DNA from: Candidatus Nealsonbacteria bacterium
GTDB lineage: Bacteria; Patescibacteriota; Minisyncoccia; Minisyncoccales; CSSED10-335
Direction: 5' to 3'
Length of the DNA stretch: 64,000 bases
NCBI GenBank assembly: GCA_019923605.1
Contig: JAHXGM010000001.1
Coordinates: 398-64,397, forward strand
Within the stretch, counting starts at the first letter, position 1; every line of letters begins with the position of its first letter. A program made the position numbers and the translations under genes. The notes under the pieces were generated by a model that ran no database searches, was not told the DNA's origin, and saw only the letters and a list, made by a program, of their open reading frames with translations. Shown one piece after another: positions 41,245-52,908 of this stretch.

Positions 41245-41847
41245 ATGTCTTCTGATTTTTCGAAAAAATTTCAACATTTTTTTTCAAAGGCGAGCAATAT
41301 TGAACATCGATTTATTCCTGAATATCAAAAACTTGAAGAGATAATAATTGGACTAAAGAAAGAGGGGTATAAAATAGTTTTGACTCAAGGAGTTTATGAC
41401 CTTATTCACGAAGGTCATGCTCTTTATTTAGAGGCCGCTAAATCATATGGAGATGTTCTTGTGGTTGGCGTTGATTCTGATGAATTGACCCGATTAAGAA
41501 AAGGACCTAATCGACCGATAGTTCCTCAAGACGAAAGAATCAAAATGCTTGTTCACCTTCGTCATGTAGATATAGTCACTCTCCGAGAATCAAATCATGG
41601 AAATGGAGACCTTATTAGAACCATAAGGCCAGACGTCCTTATAACCTCAGCTAGTACTTCTGATTTTGCAGATGGACATAAAAAAGAATATAAGGATTAT
41701 TGTAAAGAAATAATAACTCTTCCTCCTCAGGCTGTAATATCTTCAACAGCCAGAATAAGGAATATCAACATAGAAGGTGCAGAGAATCTTGCCTGTGAGA
41801 TAAGAAAGATAACCGAAGAATTTATTGATAAGATTAAAAAAGGATAA
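41245..41847 (+). CDS. Cytidylyltransferase-like nucleotidyltransferase (RfaE domain II / HldE adenylyltransferase-like, HxGH family)
   Basis: KIVLTQGVYDLIHEGH (HxGH) ...VGVDSDE...RP...ERIKML..L..VD, matching the ADP-heptose synthase adenylyltransferase domain. Confidence 0.65.
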   Translation: MSSDFSKKFQHFFSKASNIEHRFIPEYQKLEEIIIGLKKEGYKIVLTQGVYDLIHEGHALYLEAAKSYGDVLVVGVDSDELTRLRKGPNRPIVPQDERIKMLVHLRHVDIVTLRESNHGNGDLIRTIRPDVLITSASTSDFADGHKKEYKDYCKEIITLPPQAVISSTARIRNINIEGAENLACEIRKITEEFIDKIKKG

Positions 41848-41851
41848 AACA

Positions 41852-42676
41852 ATGAAAGTAATCATTGCTTACATTCCAGCTATACATAGGGGTTATATTG
41901 ATTTCATTAATAAAAACCAGCCCAGCATAATATATTTGTTGGGTCTTGAGCTTGTTCGAGAAGTGCCACGATTAGAAAGAGATATTAGGGCTCTTGAGGC
42001 GTCGGAAGCGGTAAATGCTTTAAAGGGAATTGGATTGTTAGAAGTCTATGAGCTTACAAAAGAAAATATTACGAAATTAGATAATAGTATGGAAATAGTG
42101 ATGCCAGACGAAGATGTTAGTCATCACTTTAAAGAATCATACCTAAAAGAAATTCCTGTTCAATTTGTACCCGTATTTTTAAGATGGGACAAACATAATT
42201 CTTTTAAGAAAGATGTTGTTATATCAGACAATATTATTTCAAGAGAGTTGTTTGATAGAGAAGTTATGAATAGAGCAGTAGCTGAATCGGAAAAGAGTTC
42301 AGATTGGTGGCGTCAAGTTGGATCAGTCCTTGTGAAAGATAGCAAAATTATTTTTACGGGATTTAATAGACCATTACCTTCGGATCAAGTTCATAATATT
42401 TTTGGAGACCCTCGTAGCAACTTTGATTACGGTGTAAGCTTTGAACTTTCTAAATTTATACACGCTGAAGCCGGAATGATCGCTGAAGCAGCGAGGAGGG
42501 GAATTTCTCTTGAAGGGTCATCTATATATATTACGACATTTCCTTGTCCTGCTTGTGCTAAACTAATTACTTCAGCCGGGATTAAAAAAGTTTATTACAA
42601 AGAAGGTTATTCCCTACTTGATGCGGAAGATGTATTGAAATCTTTTAATATAGAGATAATAAAAGTTGAGGATTAA
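41852..42676 (+). CDS. dCMP deaminase (cytidine/deoxycytidylate deaminase zinc-binding domain) with an about 125-aa uncharacterised N-terminal domain
   Basis: C-terminal half HAEAGMIAEAARRG...TFPCPACAKLI (H-A-E and PC..C zinc ligands). The N-terminal 125 aa have no recognisable motif. Start taken at the Met after the upstream stop (ORF track began at 41825). Confidence 0.75.
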   Translation: MKVIIAYIPAIHRGYIDFINKNQPSIIYLLGLELVREVPRLERDIRALEASEAVNALKGIGLLEVYELTKENITKLDNSMEIVMPDEDVSHHFKESYLKEIPVQFVPVFLRWDKHNSFKKDVVISDNIISRELFDREVMNRAVAESEKSSDWWRQVGSVLVKDSKIIFTGFNRPLPSDQVHNIFGDPRSNFDYGVSFELSKFIHAEAGMIAEAARRGISLEGSSIYITTFPCPACAKLITSAGIKKVYYKEGYSLLDAEDVLKSFNIEIIKVED

Positions 42677-46088: not shown

Positions 46089-47564
46089 ATGAAATATGAG
46101 CCAACGATCGGTTTGGAAGTGCATATAGAGCTTAATACTAGCTCGAAGATGTTCTGCTCATGCTTCAATGACTCAGAAGCCAAAGAGCCAAACATTAATA
46201 TTTGCCCGGTATGTACTGGACACCCGGGTACTCTTCCGGTTATTAATAAATCCGCCATTGATAAAATAATAAAAACTGGTCTGGCTTTAAATTGCACAAT
46301 ACCAGATTATTCTAATTTTGACAGAAAAAATTATTTCTATCCAGATCTTCCTAAGGGTTATCAGATAAGTCAAAATGAAAACCCATTTTGTCTAAAAGGA
46401 TTTCTTGAGATAGACGGAAAGAGGGTAGGCATTACCAGAATACATCTTGAAGAAGATGCTGGTAAATTAATACATCCTTTGGGTAGCAATCATTCTTTGG
46501 TTGATTTTAATAGAGCGGGAGTTCCATTAATGGAACTAGTAACTGAGCCAGATATTAAGTCTGCGCAAGAGGCAAAGAAATTTGTTGAAGAGCTAAGATT
46601 GATAATGAGATACCTTGGCGTTTCTAATGCTGACATGGAGAAGGGGGAATTAAGAGTTGATGCAAATATATCACTAGCATTACCAGGTGCAGAATTAGGG
46701 ACTAGGGCTGAAATAAAAAACCTTAATTCCTTTAGGTTTATTGAGAGAGCGATTGAATATGAAATAAAAAGACAAGCAGATATTTTAGACGAAGGCGACA
46801 AGATAATACAGCAAACAAGGGGTTGGGATGAAAACAAACAAGAGACTGTTTCTCAAAGAGAAAAGGAGGGATCTCATGATTATAGGTATTTCCCTGAACC
46901 AGACTTACCAGTAATTCATATTAAAAAACCTTTCATCAATTTAGAAATAATTAAATCAGCTATTCCCGAGCTTCCAAGTCAAAGACGCAAGAGATTTAAG
47001 AGTGAGTATGAGCTCACAGACAGAGAGATTGATTATTTGATATTTGATAAGGATTTAGCTAATTATTACGAAAAAGTAACAAGTGAGTTGTTAAACAGGA
47101 TAAAAGAGGTTGATTCAAAAGACGTTTCTGAAAAGAAAGAAGAGTTTAAACTTTATCGTATTGCCGCTAATTATCTTTTAACCGATCTTCAGGGGTTATT
47201 GAATGGGATGAGCGTTGTAAGCGAGGATTTCCTTATAGATCCGGAGAATTTTGCTGAATTCATCTGCATGGTTTATAAGGGCAGTATATCAAGTAGCATC
47301 GCAAAAAAGGTTATTAGGGAAATGTTTGAGACTGGAGGAGATCCATCAAATATCGTTACTGAGAAGGGGTTGACCGAGCTTAAGGATGAGTCTGAGATAG
47401 AGGTTATTATTCAGGAAGTTATATCTTCTAATACAAAGGCAGTTCAGGATTATAAAAATGGAAAAGAAGCTTCTTTTAAGTTTCTTGTTGGTCAGGTTAT
47501 GACTAAGTCAAAGGGTAGGGCAAATCCTCAAGCAGTAGACAATATACTAAAAAAGATTATTTAA
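46089..47564 (+). CDS. gatB: Asp-tRNA(Asn)/Glu-tRNA(Gln) amidotransferase subunit B
   Basis: MKYEPTIGLEVHIELNT..KMFCSC N-terminus and a GatB/YqeY C-terminal domain. Confidence 0.92.
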   Translation: MKYEPTIGLEVHIELNTSSKMFCSCFNDSEAKEPNINICPVCTGHPGTLPVINKSAIDKIIKTGLALNCTIPDYSNFDRKNYFYPDLPKGYQISQNENPFCLKGFLEIDGKRVGITRIHLEEDAGKLIHPLGSNHSLVDFNRAGVPLMELVTEPDIKSAQEAKKFVEELRLIMRYLGVSNADMEKGELRVDANISLALPGAELGTRAEIKNLNSFRFIERAIEYEIKRQADILDEGDKIIQQTRGWDENKQETVSQREKEGSHDYRYFPEPDLPVIHIKKPFINLEIIKSAIPELPSQRRKRFKSEYELTDREIDYLIFDKDLANYYEKVTSELLNRIKEVDSKDVSEKKEEFKLYRIAANYLLTDLQGLLNGMSVVSEDFLIDPENFAEFICMVYKGSISSSIAKKVIREMFETGGDPSNIVTEKGLTELKDESEIEVIIQEVISSNTKAVQDYKNGKEASFKFLVGQVMTKSKGRANPQAVDNILKKII

Positions 47565-47577
47565 TTTTACATACAAG

Positions 47578-47603
47578 AAAACCACCCTTGATGGGTGGTT
47601 TTT
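47578..47603 (+). terminator. Rho-independent terminator after gatB
   Basis: AAA-ACCACCC-TTGAT-GGGTGGT-TTTT. Confidence 0.75.
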
Positions 47604-47789
47604 GTTGATAAAATATCTGGTTAAAAATTCTCTTTTGATAATCTTCCAGAAGGTCTATTTTGCCATTAGTCTGGGGTCGACAAGGCCTGGTGTAAATATG
47701 TTTGATACCTAGTCTTCTCATTTCTTTTTCTTTCTGTTCTGCCCTTTAATGTTCTATAAAATTAAAATATCGCAAATGTAATCTTTTTT

Positions 47790-48503
47790 CTATTTCAACA
47801 CCGAAATATAGTTCTTCAGCATAAAAATAGTATCAGCTTTCAAATGTTTTTTAATCCACTCTTTTTCTTTTTCGCCACCGACTAATTCTCCCAATCCCTG
47901 GAGCATCTGACTACCTTTTCTTTTCTCTATGAACAAAAAACATTCTTCTAAGTATTCTTTGACTGATTTGCCAGTTTTTCTCTCAATTAATTCTTTATTA
48001 ATATCCCAATTATTTTTAGCAAAATAGTGAATATCATAAATATCTCGCATAGCAGTTTCTTTGCGATGAATCAGTGCAAATAACTTACTAGAAAACAAAT
48101 AATCCTTTCTAGCGACAAACATTGGGATGCCTAGATGCTCTCTTATTTCATAATACTCTTTGATATTTCCCATCAACTCTTTGGTGCTAATTTCAATCTT
48201 TATATTATGTTCATTATCACCATAAGAAAGCAGAGCAAACAATGTAAATTTTTTAATATATTGGTTCTTAATATCCCCATATTTACTCAATATATCAATA
48301 ATCTTTTCAAATACTATTTTTTCATTCTCTTTCTCCTTTGAAAGAAGATCAAAATCTAAATCAACCGAAAATCTTGATAAGTTGTAAAAAAAGTAGGCAC
48401 AGGTTCCTCCCTTAAGTCCTAAAAGAGGACTAATAGAAACATCAGAATAAAAATCTCTTAGAATTTTTCCCATAATTAGCTGGTGTTTTTCTCTATTTAG
48501 CAT
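47790..48503 (-). CDS. abiEii: AbiEii-like nucleotidyltransferase toxin (DUF1814 family, type IV toxin-antitoxin)
   Basis: LKGGTCAYFFYNLSRFSVDLDFDL resembles the AbiEii/DUF1814 GGT...RFS.D.DF motif. Overlaps the upstream partner gene by 11 nt. Confidence 0.6.
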   Translation of the reverse strand: MLNREKHQLIMGKILRDFYSDVSISPLLGLKGGTCAYFFYNLSRFSVDLDFDLLSKEKENEKIVFEKIIDILSKYGDIKNQYIKKFTLFALLSYGDNEHNIKIEISTKELMGNIKEYYEIREHLGIPMFVARKDYLFSSKLFALIHRKETAMRDIYDIHYFAKNNWDINKELIERKTGKSVKEYLEECFLFIEKRKGSQMLQGLGELVGGEKEKEWIKKHLKADTIFMLKNYISVLK

Positions 48504-49065
48504 GTTCTTTTTGATATTTACCCAGACGCTTTACTAACTGTTTGTTATTATAAACTTTTACTATTTCAATACATCTTTCCCAATTTATTGAATTTAAGTT
48601 GTCAAAATAATAGCCTGGAAATAAATAAAGCATATCTAAAAATGCCCTTTCTTTGGTAGCAATACCATAATTACTCTTATTAATAATTCCTGTTGGATTA
48701 AACAAAATATCCTCTTTTAATTTTCTAAAAGTAAAAAAACTTTTATCTATTTTTTTTGACAGAGAGTACGGACCAGCAACAAAAATTGTATCGTAATGTT
48801 GAAAGATAACACCATTTTCTCGAAGAACAGTTTCAAAGCTGATATAAGAGGGGGTATAAATACTGACCGCTAGTTCTTTTACATCAAAGTTTTTATCTTT
48901 TGCAAAAACTCCTCTAGTCATCCTAATCAACGCTTTTTGTTTCACATAATATGAAATCTTAGAGTACAAATTTGCTTTATCATTTATCTGCCAAATTAAA
49001 GCCAGATCCTTGTTGGTTAAGATCGTCTTAGGAGATTGATATAATTTCGCTATTAAGCTGTCCAT
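48493..49065 (-). CDS. abiEi: AbiEi-like antitoxin/transcriptional regulator (type IV toxin-antitoxin)
   Basis: 190 aa directly upstream of and overlapping the AbiEii-like gene. An inverted-repeat operator lies in its promoter. N-terminal region is plausibly wHTH. Assigned mainly from context. Confidence 0.5.
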   Translation of the reverse strand: MDSLIAKLYQSPKTILTNKDLALIWQINDKANLYSKISYYVKQKALIRMTRGVFAKDKNFDVKELAVSIYTPSYISFETVLRENGVIFQHYDTIFVAGPYSLSKKIDKSFFTFRKLKEDILFNPTGIINKSNYGIATKERAFLDMLYLFPGYYFDNLNSINWERCIEIVKVYNNKQLVKRLGKYQKEHAK

Positions 49066-49078
49066 GTTAATTTATCTA

Positions 49079-49133
49079 ATGGAACTAATAATTTATCACA
49101 GTTCCATTGTATATTATTGGAAAGTTTTGTCAA
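49079..49133 (-). promoter_or_regulatory. Consensus sigma70 promoter (TTGACA-16-TACAAT on the minus strand) overlapping an 8-bp perfect inverted repeat, the putative AbiEi autoregulatory operator
   Basis: Minus-strand -35 TTGACA (plus coordinates 49128-49133), 16-nt spacer, -10 TACAAT (49106-49111). Inverted repeat ATGGAACT (49079-49086) ... 13 nt ... AGTTCCAT (49100-49107) between the -10 and the abiEi start codon (49065). Confidence 0.55.
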
Positions 49134-49175
49134 ATTACAAATAAGAAGATAAATAAGATTAATTCTTAGCTTTTT

Positions 49176-50078
49176 TTACATAAAACTATTAACAATATCT
49201 TTTGACTCTTTGAAATTTTTCACCCAATAAATTCGCTGATCATTTTTCCACCAATTCATTTGTTTTTTACTAAACTTGATAGTATCTCTTAAAAGATTTT
49301 CTTTCATTTCTTCATAAGATATTTTATTCTGTAGATATTTTGCAATCCATTCATACTCAAGTCCAAACGACTCAAGTCTTTTCCAAGAAAGACCCGAGGA
49401 TCTTAATTCTTTAACCTCCTTTATCATCCCTTGGTCTAGTCTAAGTTCCAATCTTTTTTTAATAGCTTTGTCTAAATCTTTTTGATTCTTTTTGATTCCT
49501 ATGAATAGTGTATTATAGGCAGGATTTTCTTTTACTGAAGGTACTGGTTTTTTTGTTTTTATGACTATCTCTATGGCCCTTATTAATCTTCTGGGATTAT
49601 CTTTTTCTATATTTTTAGCTCTTTGAGGATCAATAGATTTAAGGAGTTGATAAAGTTCTTCAGTACTTTTCTTGCTCAGTTTTTCTCTGAGTTTCCAGTC
49701 AGGCGTTACTTTGGGTATAATTACTCCATCGGTAATGGATTTGATATAGAAACCACTTCCGCCACATAGAATTGGTAGTTTACCTCTTTCTATTATTTGA
49801 CCTATCTTTTGATAGGCTATTTTTTGATATTGAGCAACACTAAACTTCCTTTTTGGACTGGCAACGTCTAAGAGGTGGTGTGAGATTCCTTTTGTTTCCT
49901 TTTTAGTTATTTTTCCGCTTCCAATATCTAGCCCCTTATAGACTTGTCTTGAGTCAGCGGAAATTATTTCGCCATTATATTGATTGGCAATCTTAACAGC
50001 CAAGCTACTCTTGCCTGAGGCGGTCGGTCCGATTATTACAATTAACTTTAGTTTGTCAGATCTCCCTCGAGTCCCCAT
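49176..50078 (-). CDS. miaA: tRNA dimethylallyltransferase
   Basis: P-loop IVIIGPTASGKSS and ISADSRQVYKGLDIGSGK. Confidence 0.92.
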   Translation of the reverse strand: MGTRGRSDKLKLIVIIGPTASGKSSLAVKIANQYNGEIISADSRQVYKGLDIGSGKITKKETKGISHHLLDVASPKRKFSVAQYQKIAYQKIGQIIERGKLPILCGGSGFYIKSITDGVIIPKVTPDWKLREKLSKKSTEELYQLLKSIDPQRAKNIEKDNPRRLIRAIEIVIKTKKPVPSVKENPAYNTLFIGIKKNQKDLDKAIKKRLELRLDQGMIKEVKELRSSGLSWKRLESFGLEYEWIAKYLQNKISYEEMKENLLRDTIKFSKKQMNWWKNDQRIYWVKNFKESKDIVNSFM

Positions 50079-51298
50079 GATAAAGATTTATTAACTTTTA
50101 TTTTAACAAAATTACCCACTAGAGATCTTGGGCCTTTTACTTTTATACTCTTATATTCTTTTGTTTTTCCAATAATAAATCCATCTTTTTCTTTTTCTAT
50201 TAAAGCTTCTACGGTCTTATTAATTAGAAATTTATTTCTTTGCTGGTTGTTCTTCATTAAAATTTCATTTATTATCGTCCAGCGCCTCTCTTTTTCAACA
50301 TTAGAAATATCATCTTTTAATTTAAACGATGGTGTTCCTGGGCGAGGGGAGTACTTTGAAATGTAGGCCATATCATATGGGATTTCTCTGAAAAGATCTG
50401 CGGTTTTTTGAAATTGTTCTTCTGTTTCTTTTGGGAAACCAACGATAACATCAGTTGATAAAGTTAGGTCGGGCAGTTCTTTTTTTATTTTTTGAACGAA
50501 TTTCTTATAATCAGATATTTTGTAAGGCCTATTCATTCTTTCCAATATTTCATCATCTCCAGATTGAACCGGAAGATGTAGGTATTTGGTAATTTTTTCA
50601 GAACCTTTGATAATTTCAATAAGTTCGTCAGAAAAATCTTTAGGATGAGAGCTTGTAAAACGAATCCAGAAATTACCAGGAACTTTTTCTACTTCCTTAA
50701 TTAGTTGGCAGAAATTAACTTCTTTTCCTTTAGAGTCCTTTCCTTTGTATGAATTAACATTTTGTCCTAATAACCAAACTTCTTTATTTCCTTTTTCATT
50801 AGCAAGGCGAACTTCTTCTATGATGTCGTCTAGTGGTCTTGATAATTCTCTTCCTCTGGTATAGGGGACAACGCAATAGCTACAAAAGTTATTACAGCCA
50901 GTCATAATTGGTATCAAGGCCGTTAATCCTCCTTGATTTTTTGGTTTGATTTTAAAGTAATTATCAAGATCCTTCTTGTTTAGTCCGTCAATTATTTCTG
51001 GCCAAGCCAGAAGGTCTTTTGTGTCTAAAATTAAATCAGCTTTCTTAGATAGTTTTTTACCATCTCTTTTTAGTATACATCCGGTGACAATAACTTTTCC
51101 GTTTTTAATATTTTCAATTTGACCATAAATTCTATTTACAGCCGATTGTCTGATTGAACATGAATTTATAACTACAAGGTCAGCATTATACTTGTCTTCA
51201 ACAAAAGAATAGCCCATGTCTTCAAGGACAGAGCTAATTCTCTCACTGTCAGAATGATTAGTCTGACAGCCATAGGTAATAATGTGATATTTTTTCAT
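50048..51298 (-). CDS. miaB: tRNA-i6A37 methylthiotransferase (radical SAM)
   Basis: MTTase N-terminal domain (ITYGCQTN), radical-SAM CNNFCSYC, TRAM C-terminus. Confidence 0.9.
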   Translation of the reverse strand: MKKYHIITYGCQTNHSDSERISSVLEDMGYSFVEDKYNADLVVINSCSIRQSAVNRIYGQIENIKNGKVIVTGCILKRDGKKLSKKADLILDTKDLLAWPEIIDGLNKKDLDNYFKIKPKNQGGLTALIPIMTGCNNFCSYCVVPYTRGRELSRPLDDIIEEVRLANEKGNKEVWLLGQNVNSYKGKDSKGKEVNFCQLIKEVEKVPGNFWIRFTSSHPKDFSDELIEIIKGSEKITKYLHLPVQSGDDEILERMNRPYKISDYKKFVQKIKKELPDLTLSTDVIVGFPKETEEQFQKTADLFREIPYDMAYISKYSPRPGTPSFKLKDDISNVEKERRWTIINEILMKNNQQRNKFLINKTVEALIEKEKDGFIIGKTKEYKSIKVKGPRSLVGNFVKIKVNKSLSWGLEGDLTN

Positions 51299-51300
51299 GC

Positions 51301-52908
51301 CTATAGTTTTTCTTTCTTTTCTTTAAGGAAGTAGCGCCATTGCTCAATAAATTCAACGAAAATTGAGTATGGCATATCAAGGAGGGCGTTAAATAGGGTA
51401 GAGAGTAGATTATATCTTTTCCATCTTATTGTAAGCCATCTTCCCAGATGTATTATAGGAAGGGCAAAGAAATCTACTAGAGTGTCAAGGAAAGTATCTC
51501 TTTCTTCAACCATCTGAAGGGCTCTTGCCTTTTGCCTTATTTTAGTCCCTGCGAAAGCGATTAAGGAGAGGAAAGTTATAAATATTGGATAAGAAAAGGG
51601 AGGGAAGTTTATTTTATTAAGTCCCCAAACTATAACTCCAATAGATGCAAGGGTACTAAGTAAATATACAGCAGTTATTATGAGTCCAAATATCGGCCCC
51701 CTTTTTCTGAAAGACTTAATGTCATAAGTTTCTTTCTTTTCTCTCTCGTAAGCTATTTTTATAGTTTCCATGATAACTTTCTCTATATTTCCTTTTGGCG
51801 GATCCTTTACGGTTAATGCCAAAAAGGCCATGAGCATTGTTGGAACAAAGATATTGACTAGGGTAGAGGTCATTGTGAATTGGCCAAAATATCTAGTCAG
51901 TTGTATTTCTATAGTAAATAGGAATAATATATCTGTTATAAAAATAGAGATAATTGAATAGAAAGCAGCTCTTCTGATTTTAATTCTAAGATTCTTAACT
52001 CTTTTATTATATTTTTCTTTAATTAAGGATTCTAATTTTTTAGGATCCATCATTTTTTCTTCGGCTCCTAATGGGTCTTCGGAAATAATATCATCAAGTA
52101 TAAAATAGGGCGTATTATATCTTTGACAGATATTGTTTATCTTTCCTGCTAAAGGGTGATTAAGATTAGCGTCTATTCCATTTTTAATATCGTATATCCC
52201 AGAAGCAACAATATTAATATATTCGGGAGATAAATTGGACCAATTTGGGAATTTATATTTTATTAAGTGATAACTAATGACTGAATAATCAAGGTCAAAT
52301 AAAGCTTTTTGGATACTTACGAAAATTTGAATATTTTTTTCCTCTTCTGATATTTGCTGATCCTTACTTAATTTTATTTTAGTCTTCATCTGCTCGTACA
52401 TATGCTCCATCAGAGCCCTTTCTTTTATAGAAGGTGATAGTATTTCTTCAATCTCGCAAGCAGCTATTGATGAAATCCATTGATATAGGTTTAAGCGTGA
52501 ATCATTTTTATCGGCTGGGCTGTTATTAAGAATTTGAATATATTTGTCTATTACTCTTTGGACTTCTTTTATCTTCAGTTCTTCAATTGAATTATTTGGA
52601 AAATGACCAGATCTGATTAGCTCCAAAACAAGAGGTTCAGCGGATATATATATTTTAATAAACTCTCCCGCACTGAGATTTATATGTGGTAGCATTCTTC
52701 TTCGTAGATTTCGCTCAATGACACCTTTTTTAAGAAGATGCTCTTCTTTCCAGTCAATAAACTCTCTTATTTTTTCATAAAAAGCAGCTACTCGTGAAGC
52801 GACTTCATCAACATGAATGGTTGTGATACCTTCTTTTGGCTCTAATGAATAGTGCCACTTTTTGTATTGCTCAATGAGCTTTTTTGTTTGTTTGGATATT
52901 TCAGACAT
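51301..52908 (-). CDS. Hypothetical protein with an about 300-aa soluble N-terminal domain and about 4 C-terminal TM helices
   Basis: 535 aa. Hydrophobic segments FYSIISIFITDILFLF, VPTMLMAFLALTV, IFGLIITAVYLLSTLASIGVIVWGL, IFITFLSLIAFAG. No identifiable motif. Confidence 0.55.
   Translation of the reverse strand: MSEISKQTKKLIEQYKKWHYSLEPKEGITTIHVDEVASRVAAFYEKIREFIDWKEEHLLKKGVIERNLRRRMLPHINLSAGEFIKIYISAEPLVLELIRSGHFPNNSIEELKIKEVQRVIDKYIQILNNSPADKNDSRLNLYQWISSIAACEIEEILSPSIKERALMEHMYEQMKTKIKLSKDQQISEEEKNIQIFVSIQKALFDLDYSVISYHLIKYKFPNWSNLSPEYINIVASGIYDIKNGIDANLNHPLAGKINNICQRYNTPYFILDDIISEDPLGAEEKMMDPKKLESLIKEKYNKRVKNLRIKIRRAAFYSIISIFITDILFLFTIEIQLTRYFGQFTMTSTLVNIFVPTMLMAFLALTVKDPPKGNIEKVIMETIKIAYEREKKETYDIKSFRKRGPIFGLIITAVYLLSTLASIGVIVWGLNKINFPPFSYPIFITFLSLIAFAGTKIRQKARALQMVEERDTFLDTLVDFFALPIIHLGRWLTIRWKRYNLLSTLFNALLDMPYSIFVEFIEQWRYFLKEKKEKL

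What the first reader, a model, noticed from the sequence alone, without database searches (positions are those of the whole stretch)
47790..49065. Putative two-gene AbiEi/AbiEii abortive-infection toxin-antitoxin module inserted between gatB and miaA
Two overlapping minus-strand genes sit downstream of miaB-miaA with their own promoter, interrupting a housekeeping neighbourhood. The downstream gene carries an LKGGT...RFS.DLDFD nucleotidyltransferase motif resembling AbiEii/DUF1814. The upstream 190-aa gene has the AbiEi-antitoxin position and size. About 185 nt of non-coding DNA follow the toxin stop before the convergent gatB terminator. This is the only recognisable defence-type module in the window.
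Basis: partly seen in the sequence, partly recalled or inferred. Interest (0 to 1): 0.55.

Follow-up and report, generated by a model that had tools for sequence, protein, structure and literature searches.

The report
Ordinary AbiE toxin-antitoxin cassette, confirmed
The two overlapping genes are a genuine, intact AbiEi/AbiEii toxin-antitoxin (abortive-infection type) cassette inserted between gatB and miaA of a small-genome Patescibacteria (CPR) bacterium; it belongs to a well-known, already annotated family and is ordinary.

Summary
ORF 47790-48503(-) passes Pfam AbiEii/DUF1814 (62.6 bits, cut-off 22.5). It carries all four nucleotidyltransferase motifs plus the Ser phospho-acceptor, and its model folds like JHP933 and MenT3. 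ORF 48493-49065(-) matches a PADLOC AbiEi model end to end (176.6 bits) but stays below the Pfam and NCBIfam cut-offs. The genes overlap by 11 nt.

The closest relatives have gatB and miaA about 10-60 nt apart, so this is an insertion. The same ~1.37-kb unit (promoter, operator, two genes) sits in unrelated contexts in 92 of 95 other loci, and both genes are under purifying selection.

One detail goes beyond annotation. A dyad, TGGAAn-N15-nTTCCA, overlaps the -10 box, is conserved in 62 cassettes, and covaries. Its variable base is predicted by AbiEi residue 34 in the putative recognition helix (C with Y/H, G with K, A with N). That supports AbiEi as an autorepressor.

The "non-coding" tail holds a decayed IS481 transposase fragment and a two-way terminator hairpin. 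The exact toxin protein is already annotated in GenBank, and AbiE is reported as common in groundwater bacteria and found in CPR genomes. Toxicity, neutralisation and phage defence remain untested. Interest is low.

The parts
48493..49065 (-). abiEi: 190-aa antitoxin and autorepressor. [quoted passage not shown]
   Evidence: PADLOC AbiEi PDLC02255 at 176.6 bits over residues 2-183 of 190, plus 13 further AbiEi models. Pfam AbiEi_4 covers residues 29-55 but is sub-threshold. NCBIfam NF047376 covers residues 5-91 at E 2.3e-7, sub-threshold. 2534 homologues were found, about 70% identical across CPR MAGs. dN/dS is about 0.11 against L083.
47790..48503 (-). abiEii: 237-aa DUF1814 Pol-beta-type nucleotidyltransferase toxin.
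   Evidence: PF08843 at 62.6 bits against a 22.5 cut-off. PADLOC PDLC02324 at 207 bits, full length. Motifs G32-G33, R44-x-S46-x-D48-x-D50, K140...R147 and R153-D154-x-x-D157 have all named residues invariant across 47 homologues, except G33, which is nearly invariant (at least 90%). The AF2 model (pLDDT 75.9) matches JHP933 4ok0/4o8s (E 2e-8) and TglT/MenT3 6j7q (E 3e-5). dN/dS is about 0.08.
48493..48503 (-). 11-nt overlap of the abiEi stop with the abiEii start (ATGCTAAATAG), implying translational coupling.
   Evidence: Read from the sequence. The same overlap occurs in 73 of 92 related cassettes.
49106..49133 (-). Sigma-70-type promoter: -35 TTGACA (49133-49128), 16-nt spacer, -10 TACAAT (49111-49106).
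   Evidence: Matches 11 of 12 consensus positions. TTGAC(T/A) and TA(C/T)AAT are conserved in register in 62 distinct cassettes.
49078..49108 (.). Candidate AbiEi operator: perfect dyad AATGGAACT-N13-AGTTCCATT, with half-site cores TGGAA and TTCCA 22 bp apart centre to centre. It overlaps the last 3 nt of the -10 box and the expected transcription start.
   Evidence: Unique in the window, 0.02 matches expected by chance. Conserved and covarying in 62 cassettes: 71.8% of cells paired against 29-43% when partners are slid, with C.G 25, G.C 19 and A.T 4 at the variable pair. The variable base is predicted by AbiEi residue 34.
47785..49153 (-). Extent of the horizontally shared cassette (promoter, operator, abiEi, abiEii).
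   Evidence: blastn identity of 72-81% to L081, L083, L085 and L088/L089, which lie in unrelated genomic contexts. Similarity starts at or just upstream of the -35 box and stops within 5 nt of the toxin stop codon.
47557..47721 (-). Decayed fragment of an IS481-family DDE transposase (…GIKHIYTRPCRPQTNGK, then a frameshift into …FWKIIKREFL…). It is not part of the shared cassette.
   Evidence: NCBIfam NF033577 at E 2.5e-5, profile positions 212-233 of 284. Pfam rve_3 at E 0.048. Frame analysis. Found only in the window and its 99.5%-identical twin L096, not beside other cassettes.
47578..47602 (.). Symmetric GC-rich hairpin (AAAACCACCC-ATCAA-GGGTGGTTTT) that looks like a two-way terminator for gatB (+) and abiE (-).
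   Evidence: Terminator scan. It lies 14 nt after the gatB stop at 47564.

Best explanation
This is an intact, horizontally acquired AbiE-family toxin-antitoxin cassette. The partner families are a COG5340-type AbiEi and a COG2253/DUF1814 AbiEii. It lies in the genome of a Patescibacteria (Paceibacteria / Nealsonbacteria-like) bacterium, at the otherwise tight convergent gatB/miaA junction.

Shown here:
- The family membership of both proteins.
- The presence of all catalytic motifs.
- The bicistronic, overlapping layout.
- The insertion itself.
- A conserved promoter with a dyad that co-varies with the AbiEi recognition helix.

Inferred from the family literature:
- AbiEi binds the dyad that overlaps -10/+1 and represses its own operon.
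- AbiEi also binds AbiEii through its C-terminal part and makes the toxin phosphorylate its own Ser46. This residue is the equivalent of T65 in S. agalactiae AbiEii and S78 in MenT3. Phosphorylation switches the enzyme off.
- When antitoxin supply fails, for example after phage-induced shut-off of host expression, or when the phosphate is removed, AbiEii uses Mg2+ and a pyrimidine NTP to extend tRNA 3' ends. This blocks aminoacylation and translation.
- The outcome is growth arrest. It acts either as abortive infection or simply as an addiction mechanism that keeps the cassette in the genome.
For: Toxin:
- PF08843 above the cut-off, and a full-length PADLOC AbiEii match.
- All four motifs of Dy et al. 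2014 (PMC3985639) are present. The S-x-D phospho-acceptor geometry of MenT3 (S78/D80, PMC7450476) and SaAbiEii (T65/D67, bioRxiv 10.64898/2026.01.19.700257) is present too. The named residues are invariant or, for G33, nearly invariant in 47 homologues.
- The fold matches solved DUF1814 enzymes and the sequence hits JHP933.

Antitoxin:
- Full-length PADLOC AbiEi match plus 13 other AbiEi models.
- JGI names homologues 'predicted transcriptional regulator of viral defense system'.

Operon and cassette:
- 92 of 95 related loci carry both genes, and 73 have the identical overlap.
- The cassette occurs in unrelated contexts.
- dN/dS is 0.08-0.11.

Insertion:
- gatB and miaA are 10-60 nt apart in the closest relatives L001, L015 and L051. 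None of the 80 gatB loci has AbiE.

Operator:
- The dyad is unique in the window, conserved and covarying.
- AbiEi residue 34 carries 1.34-1.37 of the 1.54 bits of operator-base information, against at most 0.48 bits for any toxin column. The top five positions are residues 28-34.
- The code holds in 56 of 62 cassettes, and class switches occur between 92-94%-identical proteins.
Against: - No experiment exists for this subfamily.
- The antitoxin fails the curated Pfam and NCBIfam cut-offs. Its AF2 model is poor (pLDDT 57.9), so its fold could not be compared with AbiEi 6Y8Q.
- S. agalactiae AbiE gave no protection against 32 coliphages in E. coli (bioRxiv 10.64898/2026.01.19.700257), so a defence role is not guaranteed for any AbiE.
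- No homologue was found on viral contigs, and the cassette is not in a defence island.
- The operator and codon 34 are only about 130 nt apart. Block recombination could co-transfer them and inflate the association.
- Whether this organism has a Ser/Thr phosphatase to reactivate the toxin is unknown.
Confidence: 0.85

Rival explanations
1. It is the same AbiE-type toxin-antitoxin pair, but it acts only as a selfish addiction or stress module with no anti-phage role. It persists because losing it kills or arrests the cell.
For: The cassette is a minimal, self-contained unit found at many unrelated chromosomal sites. It is not in a defence island. S. agalactiae AbiE gave no protection against 32 phages (bioRxiv 10.64898/2026.01.19.700257). 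Synonymous sites are saturated between cassettes while the proteins stay about 70% identical, which suggests long-term persistence.
Against: L. lactis AbiE and the related RlegTA and SanaTA systems do protect against phages (PMC3985639; bioRxiv 10.64898/2026.01.19.700257). AbiE ranks among the most frequent defence families in groundwater bacterial MAGs (PMC12259885). Keeping a costly toxin in a roughly 1-Mb-class genome suggests a benefit.
Confidence: 0.3
2. The dyad is not a protein operator. It is an RNA hairpin in the 5' leader that controls translation or mRNA stability.
For: The arms are complementary and covary. U.G-type combinations occur at one pair in 16 of 62 sequences.
Against: The left arm starts inside the -10 hexamer, so with a start about 7 nt downstream most of it would not be transcribed (inference). 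The variable base tracks one residue in the predicted recognition helix with chemically sensible pairs (Lys with G, Asn with A), whereas toxin columns show no such signal. AbiEi proteins are shown to bind promoter inverted repeats (PMC3985639, PMC7319586).
Confidence: 0.07
3. The copy in this genome is an inactive relic left by the decayed IS481 element next to it.
For: A degraded transposase fragment lies 70 nt downstream. The 225-nt spacer carries 4 of the 33 differences from the twin contig L096.
Against: Both ORFs are full length and every catalytic and conserved residue is intact. The promoter and a perfect dyad are intact. The window's AbiEi has Tyr34 with a GGAAC operator, which is the matching class. 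In 6.7 kb compared with L096, only 2 differences fall in abiEi and 4 in abiEii, and neither reading frame is disrupted.
Confidence: 0.04
4. The toxin is active but acts on something other than tRNA 3' ends, for example by GTP-dependent modification of another RNA or a protein.
For: It shares only 12-19% identity with characterised enzymes. At 237 aa it is about 50 residues shorter than SaAbiEii or MenT3. Early work reported GTP binding by AbiEii (PMC3985639). MenT homologues differ in tRNA specificity (PMC10435456).
Against: Every DUF1814 toxin whose target has been determined (MenT1, MenT3, MenT4, SaAbiEii) modifies tRNA acceptor ends (PMC7450476, PMC10435456, bioRxiv 10.64898/2026.01.19.700257). 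Motif III (K...R) and motif IV are conserved here.
Confidence: 0.15

Closest known systems
AbiE (AbiEi/AbiEii) of Streptococcus agalactiae and Lactococcus lactis pNP40
   Same: It is a bicistronic operon with the antitoxin first. The antitoxin is a wHTH regulator with a C-terminal domain. The toxin is a DUF1814/COG2253 Pol-beta nucleotidyltransferase with motifs I-IV. The phospho-acceptor hydroxyl residue sits two positions before the first catalytic Asp (R-x-S/T-x-D-x-D). There is an inverted repeat in the promoter.
   Different: The toxin is smaller: 237 aa, against a tagged mass of about 33.3 kDa for SaAbiEii. There is one dyad with half-sites 22 bp apart overlapping -10/+1, instead of two 23-bp repeats (an 11-bp palindrome spaced by N27). 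The acceptor is Ser rather than Thr. The antitoxin is too divergent to pass the Pfam AbiEi_1-4 or NCBIfam cut-offs. Nothing has been tested experimentally.
MenA3-MenT3 (TakA-TglT, Rv1044-Rv1045) and other MenAT systems of Mycobacterium tuberculosis
   Same: The fold is DUF1814 (Foldseek E 3e-5 to 6j7q). The S-x-D arrangement matches, with phospho-Ser78 corresponding to Ser46 here. The Lys and Asp of motifs III and IV are conserved. MenA3 is a COG5340-type antitoxin.
   Different: Identity is about 12%. MenT3 is 290 aa. The hosts are actinobacteria. The operator architecture differs (multiple inverted repeats, PMC7319586).
JHP933 of Helicobacter pylori (PDB 4O8S / 4OK0)
   Same: It is the closest solved structure and the closest sequence in the PDB (phmmer E 3e-7; Foldseek E 2e-8, TM about 0.6). 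It is of similar size (232 aa) and has the same LKGxT...RFSxDLDFD signature.
   Different: It is encoded in an H. pylori plasticity-zone or ICE context. Identity is 17-19%. No partner antitoxin or regulatory site was compared here.
PADLOC AbiE sub-models PDLC02255 (AbiEi) and PDLC02324 (AbiEii)
   Same: Both window proteins match these models end to end (176.6 and 207 bits). This compact subfamily is therefore already captured by a defence-system annotation resource. GenBank already names the identical toxin 'AbiEii/AbiGii toxin family protein'.
   Different: These are annotation models and do not describe mechanism. The operator and its recognition code are not part of them.

Membership tests
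AbiE toxin-antitoxin system (AbiEi + AbiEii) | The toxin belongs to DUF1814 / PF08843 (COG2253). | tested here: met
   PF08843 at 62.6 bits against a 22.5 cut-off, covering residues 14-182. PADLOC AbiEii PDLC02324 at 207 bits, covering residues 4-232 of 237.
AbiE toxin-antitoxin system (AbiEi + AbiEii) | Pol-beta nucleotidyltransferase motifs I (hG[GS]), II (R-x-x-x-D-h-D), III (K...R) and IV (+DxxD), each essential for toxicity in SaAbiEii. | tested here: met
   G32-G33, R44/D48/D50, K140/R147 and R153-D154-x-x-D157 are all present. All named residues are invariant in 47 homologues except G33, which is nearly invariant (at least 90%). Motif definitions come from PMC3985639.
AbiE toxin-antitoxin system (AbiEi + AbiEii) | The toxin has the fold of solved DUF1814 enzymes. 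| tested here: met
   The AF2 model (pLDDT 75.9, pTM 0.77) matches 4ok0/4o8s at E 2e-8 and 6j7q (TglT/MenT3) at E 3e-5. The model is of moderate confidence and is low around residues 32-60.
AbiE toxin-antitoxin system (AbiEi + AbiEii) | The upstream partner is an AbiEi / COG5340-type protein by sequence. | tested here: met
   PADLOC AbiEi PDLC02255 at 176.6 bits over residues 2-183 of 190, and 13 further AbiEi models down to E 4e-3. Caveat: Pfam AbiEi_4 scores 12.7 against a cut-off of 25, and NCBIfam NF047376 scores 30.7 against 150. Both are below the curated cut-offs.
AbiE toxin-antitoxin system (AbiEi + AbiEii) | The antitoxin has the two-domain AbiEi fold (N-terminal wHTH plus C-terminal domain, PDB 6Y8Q). 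| tested here: inconclusive
   The AF2 model is poor (pLDDT 57.9). Foldseek gave only noise and a profile search against PDB found nothing. The predicted secondary structure (H2-10, H18-25, H30-42, then a beta-wing region) is compatible with a wHTH.
AbiE toxin-antitoxin system (AbiEi + AbiEii) | Bicistronic operon with the antitoxin gene first and the genes adjacent or overlapping. | tested here: met
   The overlap is 11 nt. 92 of 95 related loci have both genes in this order.
AbiE toxin-antitoxin system (AbiEi + AbiEii) | Inverted repeats in the promoter, bound by AbiEi for negative autoregulation. | tested here: met
   The presence and evolutionary constraint of a dyad at 49078-49108 were shown, together with its co-variation with AbiEi residue 34. 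Actual binding and repression cannot be tested with these tools.
AbiE toxin-antitoxin system (AbiEi + AbiEii) | Ser/Thr phospho-acceptor two residues before the first catalytic Asp (type VII neutralisation by auto-phosphorylation). | tested here: met
   S46-V-D48 is present, and S46 is invariant in 47 homologues. The equivalents are T65/D67 in SaAbiEii and S78/D80 in MenT3. Phosphorylation itself cannot be tested here.
AbiE toxin-antitoxin system (AbiEi + AbiEii) | The toxin arrests growth and the cognate antitoxin neutralises it. | not testable with these tools
   This needs expression experiments.
AbiE toxin-antitoxin system (AbiEi + AbiEii) | The system confers abortive-infection resistance to phage. 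| not testable with these tools
   No cultured host-phage pair is available. No homologue was found on viral contigs.
IS481-family insertion sequence (for the 47557-47721 relic) | Complete DDE (rve) transposase with terminal inverted repeats. | tested here: not met
   Only about 22-40 residues of the C-terminal part of the catalytic domain remain (NF033577 positions 212-233 of 284, E 2.5e-5). The fragment contains a frameshift. No second copy exists in the window. It is a relic, not an element.

The most novel reading that the evidence does not exclude
This compact AbiE subfamily (190 + 237 aa) is widespread in Patescibacteria. It may carry a simple, evolvable operator code in which one recognition-helix residue of AbiEi specifies one base of each half-site: Tyr/His with C, Lys with G, Asn with A.

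Repeated switches between near-identical proteins would then mean selection to insulate co-resident or incoming cassettes from each other's repressors. That would make the family a natural, minimal model for how toxin-antitoxin and defence cassettes avoid regulatory cross-talk in tiny genomes.
Probability: 0.3. Interest if true: 0.35.

Novelty: new member of a known kind. Interest (0 to 1): 0.2.

Why it matters
The finding matters little beyond correct annotation. It confirms that a streamlined episymbiont-type genome keeps an intact, self-regulated toxin-antitoxin or abortive-infection cassette. It also shows that GenBank's 'hypothetical protein' label on homologues of the upstream gene can be replaced by AbiEi. 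The one reusable result is the conserved promoter-operator and the residue-34/base correspondence. This gives a directly testable DNA-recognition rule for AbiEi-type antitoxins and a probe set (62 natural variants) for studying repressor-operator insulation.

Tried and rejected
- Exact-sequence look-ups of the toxin, and of its 100%-identical cluster entry P0001, found no contig on record. The source record therefore could not be retrieved. The near-identical contig L096 (BBPF01000679.1, 99.5% identical) has the same arrangement, so no pre-insertion allele was found.\n- The antitoxin structure model was too poor to use. Its Foldseek search gave only noise. Single-sequence and profile searches against PDB sequences found nothing.\n- I tested whether the gatB/miaA junction is a recurrent defence-island hotspot. 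44 of 68 Patescibacteria loci have more than 400 nt there, but the inserts encode ordinary genes (pyrB/pyrI, family-2 glycosyltransferases, deaminases, an ABC ATPase, MscS). The idea was rejected.\n- I tested whether IS481 relics accompany the cassette elsewhere. They do not.\n- A search for the toxin family on viral contigs found none.\n- Rfam and tRNA scans of the region found nothing meaningful.\n- The proximity to tRNA-related genes (gatB, miaA, miaB) was considered a possible functional link. It was rejected because the cassette sits next to unrelated genes elsewhere.\n- The PADLOC 'dCTPase' hits were checked for a second defence system. The one located is a match to a dCMP-deaminase core only.
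Full report
**1. The observation**

The two minus-strand ORFs exist exactly as stated: 48493-49065 (190 aa) and 47790-48503 (237 aa). They overlap by 11 nt, ATGCTAAATAG.

The flanking genes are confirmed by Pfam:
- gatB (46089-47564, +; PF02934 + PF02637)
- miaA (49176-50078, -; PF01715)
- a miaB-type methylthiotransferase (50048-51298, -; UPF0004 + Radical_SAM + TRAM)
- further upstream, a nucleotide-metabolism cluster: thyA, tmk, folA, deoC, a HIT protein and a dCMP deaminase

A sigma-70-like promoter sits at 49133..49106 on the minus strand, TTGACA-16-TACAAT, matching 11 of 12 positions. It lies in the 110-nt gap after miaA.

The two genes have the lowest G+C of all ORFs of 150 aa or more in the window: 0.291 and 0.298 against 0.347 +/- 0.021. 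Their GC3 is unremarkable, so composition alone is weak evidence for foreign origin.

**2. What the proteins are**

*Toxin.* The downstream protein passes Pfam AbiEii/DUF1814 (PF08843) at 62.6 bits, cut-off 22.5. It matches PADLOC AbiEii model PDLC02324 over its full length at 207 bits.

Against PDB sequences it hits only JHP933 of H. pylori, a DUF1814 nucleotidyltransferase (E 3e-7). An AlphaFold model built from 47 homologues (pLDDT 75.9) matches JHP933 (E 2e-8) and TglT/MenT3 of M. tuberculosis (E 3e-5) by Foldseek.

Mapped on the motifs of Dy et al. 2014 (PMC3985639), the protein has:
- motif I: G32-G33
- motif II: R44-F-S46-V-D48-L-D50
- motif III: K140...R147
- motif IV: R153-D154-I-Y-D157

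All these residues are invariant in the 47-sequence alignment except G33, which is nearly invariant. Ser46 sits two residues before the first catalytic Asp. The phospho-acceptors T65 of SaAbiEii (D67) and S78 of MenT3 (D80) have the same position.

*Antitoxin.* The upstream protein matches 14 PADLOC AbiEi models. The best, PDLC02255, covers residues 2-183 at 176.6 bits.

- Pfam AbiEi_4, the wHTH model, aligns to residues 29-55 but stays below threshold (12.7 against 25).
- NCBIfam TAA_AbiEi aligns to residues 5-91 at E 2.3e-7, below its equivalog cut-off.
- Its homologues carry no precomputed Pfam domain. NCBI mostly calls them 'hypothetical protein', while JGI calls several 'predicted transcriptional regulator of viral defense system'.
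- Its AlphaFold model was poor (pLDDT 57.9), so fold comparison with AbiEi 6Y8Q was not informative.

Antitoxin membership therefore rests on sequence profiles, gene order and the operator evidence in section 4.

**3. Insertion and mobility**

Eighty gatB loci from GTDB species representatives were compared. The arrangement gatB-> <-miaA-miaB is widely conserved in Patescibacteria.

The closest relatives have the two genes only about 10-60 nt apart. These are L001 (Paceibacterota, 66% GatB identity), L015 and L051 (Nealsonbacteria). None of the 80 loci contains an AbiE gene. The window has 1611 nt at this junction, so the module is an insertion.

The inserted unit recurs elsewhere:
- Homologues with the same 190 + 237-aa layout sit between groEL/htpX and asnS, next to a Ham1-family gene (PF01725), next to radC, or next to an APH kinase.
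- DNA similarity to the window (72-81%) starts at or just upstream of the -35 box and ends within 5 nt of the toxin stop codon. The shared unit is a ~1.37-kb promoter-operator-abiEi-abiEii cassette with no mobility gene of its own.
- Of 95 related loci, 92 have both genes. The three without the antitoxin gene have little or no sequence upstream of the toxin gene. 73 have the identical overlap.

Selection is purifying. Against L083, dN/dS is 0.099/0.87 for abiEi and 0.115/1.40 for abiEii. Synonymous sites are saturated against other cassettes. The ~70% protein identity across CPR lineages therefore reflects constraint, not recent spread.

No homologue was found on viral contigs.

The larger gatB/miaA gaps in more distant genomes hold ordinary genes (pyrBI, glycosyltransferases, deaminases). 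The junction is not a defence hotspot.

**4. Promoter and operator**

Immediately after the -10 box lies a perfect dyad, AATGGAACT-N13-AGTTCCATT (49108..49078). It is unique in the window, with 0.02 matches expected by chance.

The same architecture aligns without gaps in 62 distinct cassettes: TTGAC(T/A), a 17-nt spacer (16 nt in the window), TA(C/T)AAT, then TGGAAn...nTTCCA. The half-site cores are 22 bp apart, about two helical turns.

Treating the dyad as 18 'pairs':
- 71.8% of cells are complementary, against 29-43% when partners are slid by 1-3 columns.
- The covariation score is 0.170, against 0.04-0.10 for the slid controls, and 0 of 500 shuffles reach it.
- The base next to the core switches symmetrically: C.G 25, G.C 19, A.T 4.

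That variable base is predicted almost perfectly by AbiEi residue 34:
- C goes with Tyr/His (25 of 27), G with Lys (19 of 20), A with Asn (12 of 15).
- Mutual information is 1.34-1.37 of a possible 1.54 bits.
- The five most informative positions are residues 28-34. They fall in the turn before, and the first turns of, predicted helix 30-42, the likely recognition helix.
- No toxin column exceeds 0.48 bits.

The rule holds in 56 of 62 cassettes, spread over 30 clusters at 85% identity. Proteins 92-94% identical to each other differ in both operator class and residue 34, so deep phylogeny does not explain it. Lys-guanine and Asn-adenine are classical contacts (general knowledge). The window's own pair, Tyr34 with GGAAC, belongs to the matching class.

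Caveat: the operator and codon 34 are only about 130 nt apart, so one recombination tract can move both.

Because the left arm begins inside the -10 hexamer, most of it should lie upstream of the transcription start (inference). This favours a DNA operator over an RNA hairpin.

The result fits what is established for AbiEi, which binds promoter inverted repeats and represses abiE (PMC3985639; PMC7319586). The geometry differs, however. S. agalactiae uses two 23-bp repeats with an 11-bp palindrome spaced by 27 nt.

**5. The downstream tail**

The ~225 nt between the toxin stop and the gatB stop are not featureless.

- ORF 47557-47721 encodes ...GIKHIYTRPCRPQTNGK. This matches positions 212-233 of the 284-position IS481 transposase model (E 2.5e-5). 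The likely continuation, FWKIIKREFL, lies in another frame.
- It is a decayed relic. It is absent from other cassettes and has no second copy in the window.
- It hints that an IS was involved in, or followed, the insertion.
- A symmetric hairpin at 47578-47602 lies 14 nt past gatB and reads as a terminator in both directions.
- Rfam and tRNA scans found nothing meaningful.

**6. How it most likely works**

*Shown here:* family membership, intact catalytic and regulatory residues, the operon layout, the insertion, purifying selection, and a constrained dyad that co-varies with the repressor.

*Inferred from the family literature:*
- AbiEi represses its own promoter.
- AbiEi binds AbiEii and induces auto-phosphorylation of the Ser/Thr next to the catalytic Asp pair. 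This abolishes nucleotide binding, which is the type VII mechanism (PMC11375011; bioRxiv 10.64898/2026.01.19.700257).
- Free toxin adds pyrimidine nucleotides to tRNA 3' ends and stops translation (PMC7450476; PMC10435456).
- The physiological read-out is abortive infection or addiction.

Phage defence is plausible: L. lactis AbiE, RlegTA and SanaTA protect against phages. AbiE is also among the five most common defence families in groundwater bacterial MAGs (PMC12259885), and an AbiEi-AbiEii system has been reported in the patescibacterium Strigamonas methylophilicida (bioRxiv 10.1101/2024.03.08.584096). It is not assured, because SaAbiEii gave no protection against 32 coliphages.

**7. Comparison and novelty**

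The locus meets every testable defining feature of AbiE except the antitoxin fold, which was inconclusive.

The identical toxin protein is already in GenBank as 'nucleotidyl transferase AbiEii/AbiGii toxin family protein [Candidatus Nealsonbacteria]'. PADLOC models match both proteins end to end.

The only element not already in annotation resources is the conserved single-dyad operator and its one-residue/one-base correspondence. This is a modest but directly testable refinement.

Elsewhere in the window, a PADLOC scan of 77 ORFs found only a dCMP-deaminase core hitting a dCTPase model and two weak single-protein hits. 'The only defence-type module in the window' therefore stands.

**8. Verdict**

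The feature is ordinary and the interest is low (0.2).

Noticed in passing
window 47557-47721 (-), continuing to about 47601 in another frame: Frameshifted relic of an IS481-family DDE transposase, directly downstream of the toxin gene. It is present only here and in the 99.5%-identical contig L096. Four of the 33 differences from L096 fall in this 225-nt spacer.
   Followed up: partly
window 47578-47602: Symmetric GC-rich hairpin flanked by A-runs and T-runs on both sides. It lies 14 nt after the gatB stop and looks like a shared two-way terminator for the convergent gatB and abiE transcripts.
   Followed up: no
L001-L080, gatB/miaA junction (e.g. L066 8507-11844, L074 8507-11770, L034 7596-10377): The convergent gatB/miaA junction is conserved across Patescibacteria but varies in size. 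19 of 68 loci have 150 nt or less there, and 24 of 68 have more than 1 kb. The inserts encode pyrB/pyrI, family-2 glycosyltransferases, cytidine deaminases, an ABC ATPase and an MscS channel.
   Followed up: partly
window 41825-42673 (+): 283-aa protein with a dCMP/cytidine deaminase domain only in residues 144-258 and an N-terminal stretch of about 140 aa with no Pfam match. PADLOC's defensive 'dCTPase' model hits only a 66-residue core (residues 207-272). It sits in a thyA-tmk-folA-deoC nucleotide cluster, so it is probably housekeeping.
   Followed up: partly
window 51301-52908 (-): 535-aa predicted membrane protein with no Pfam family at E <= 1e-5. It lies between miaB and dnaE, and is kept in the same position in the closest relatives (48-59% identity in L001, L005, L007, L015 and L051).
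   Followed up: no
window, location not determined: One ORF gives a weak PADLOC hit to PDC-M51B (E 1.3e-8) and another to PglW (E 4.2e-6). A second ORF also hits the dCTPase model. These ORFs were not identified.
   Followed up: no
homologues P0131, P0146, P0234: AbiEi homologues 71-74% identical to the window protein are labelled as coming from a Pacearchaeota (DPANN archaeon) MAG, a Nitrospirota MAG and an Elusimicrobia MAG. This is either cross-phylum or cross-domain transfer of the cassette, or a binning artefact.
   Followed up: no
L166, L167, L168 (operator region, alignment A5): A small group of cassettes has a different inner half-site (TGGAAAGG...CCTTTCCA) and a hydrophobic residue (I, F or L) at AbiEi position 34. 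These exceptions to the Y/K/N code may form a fourth specificity class.
   Followed up: no
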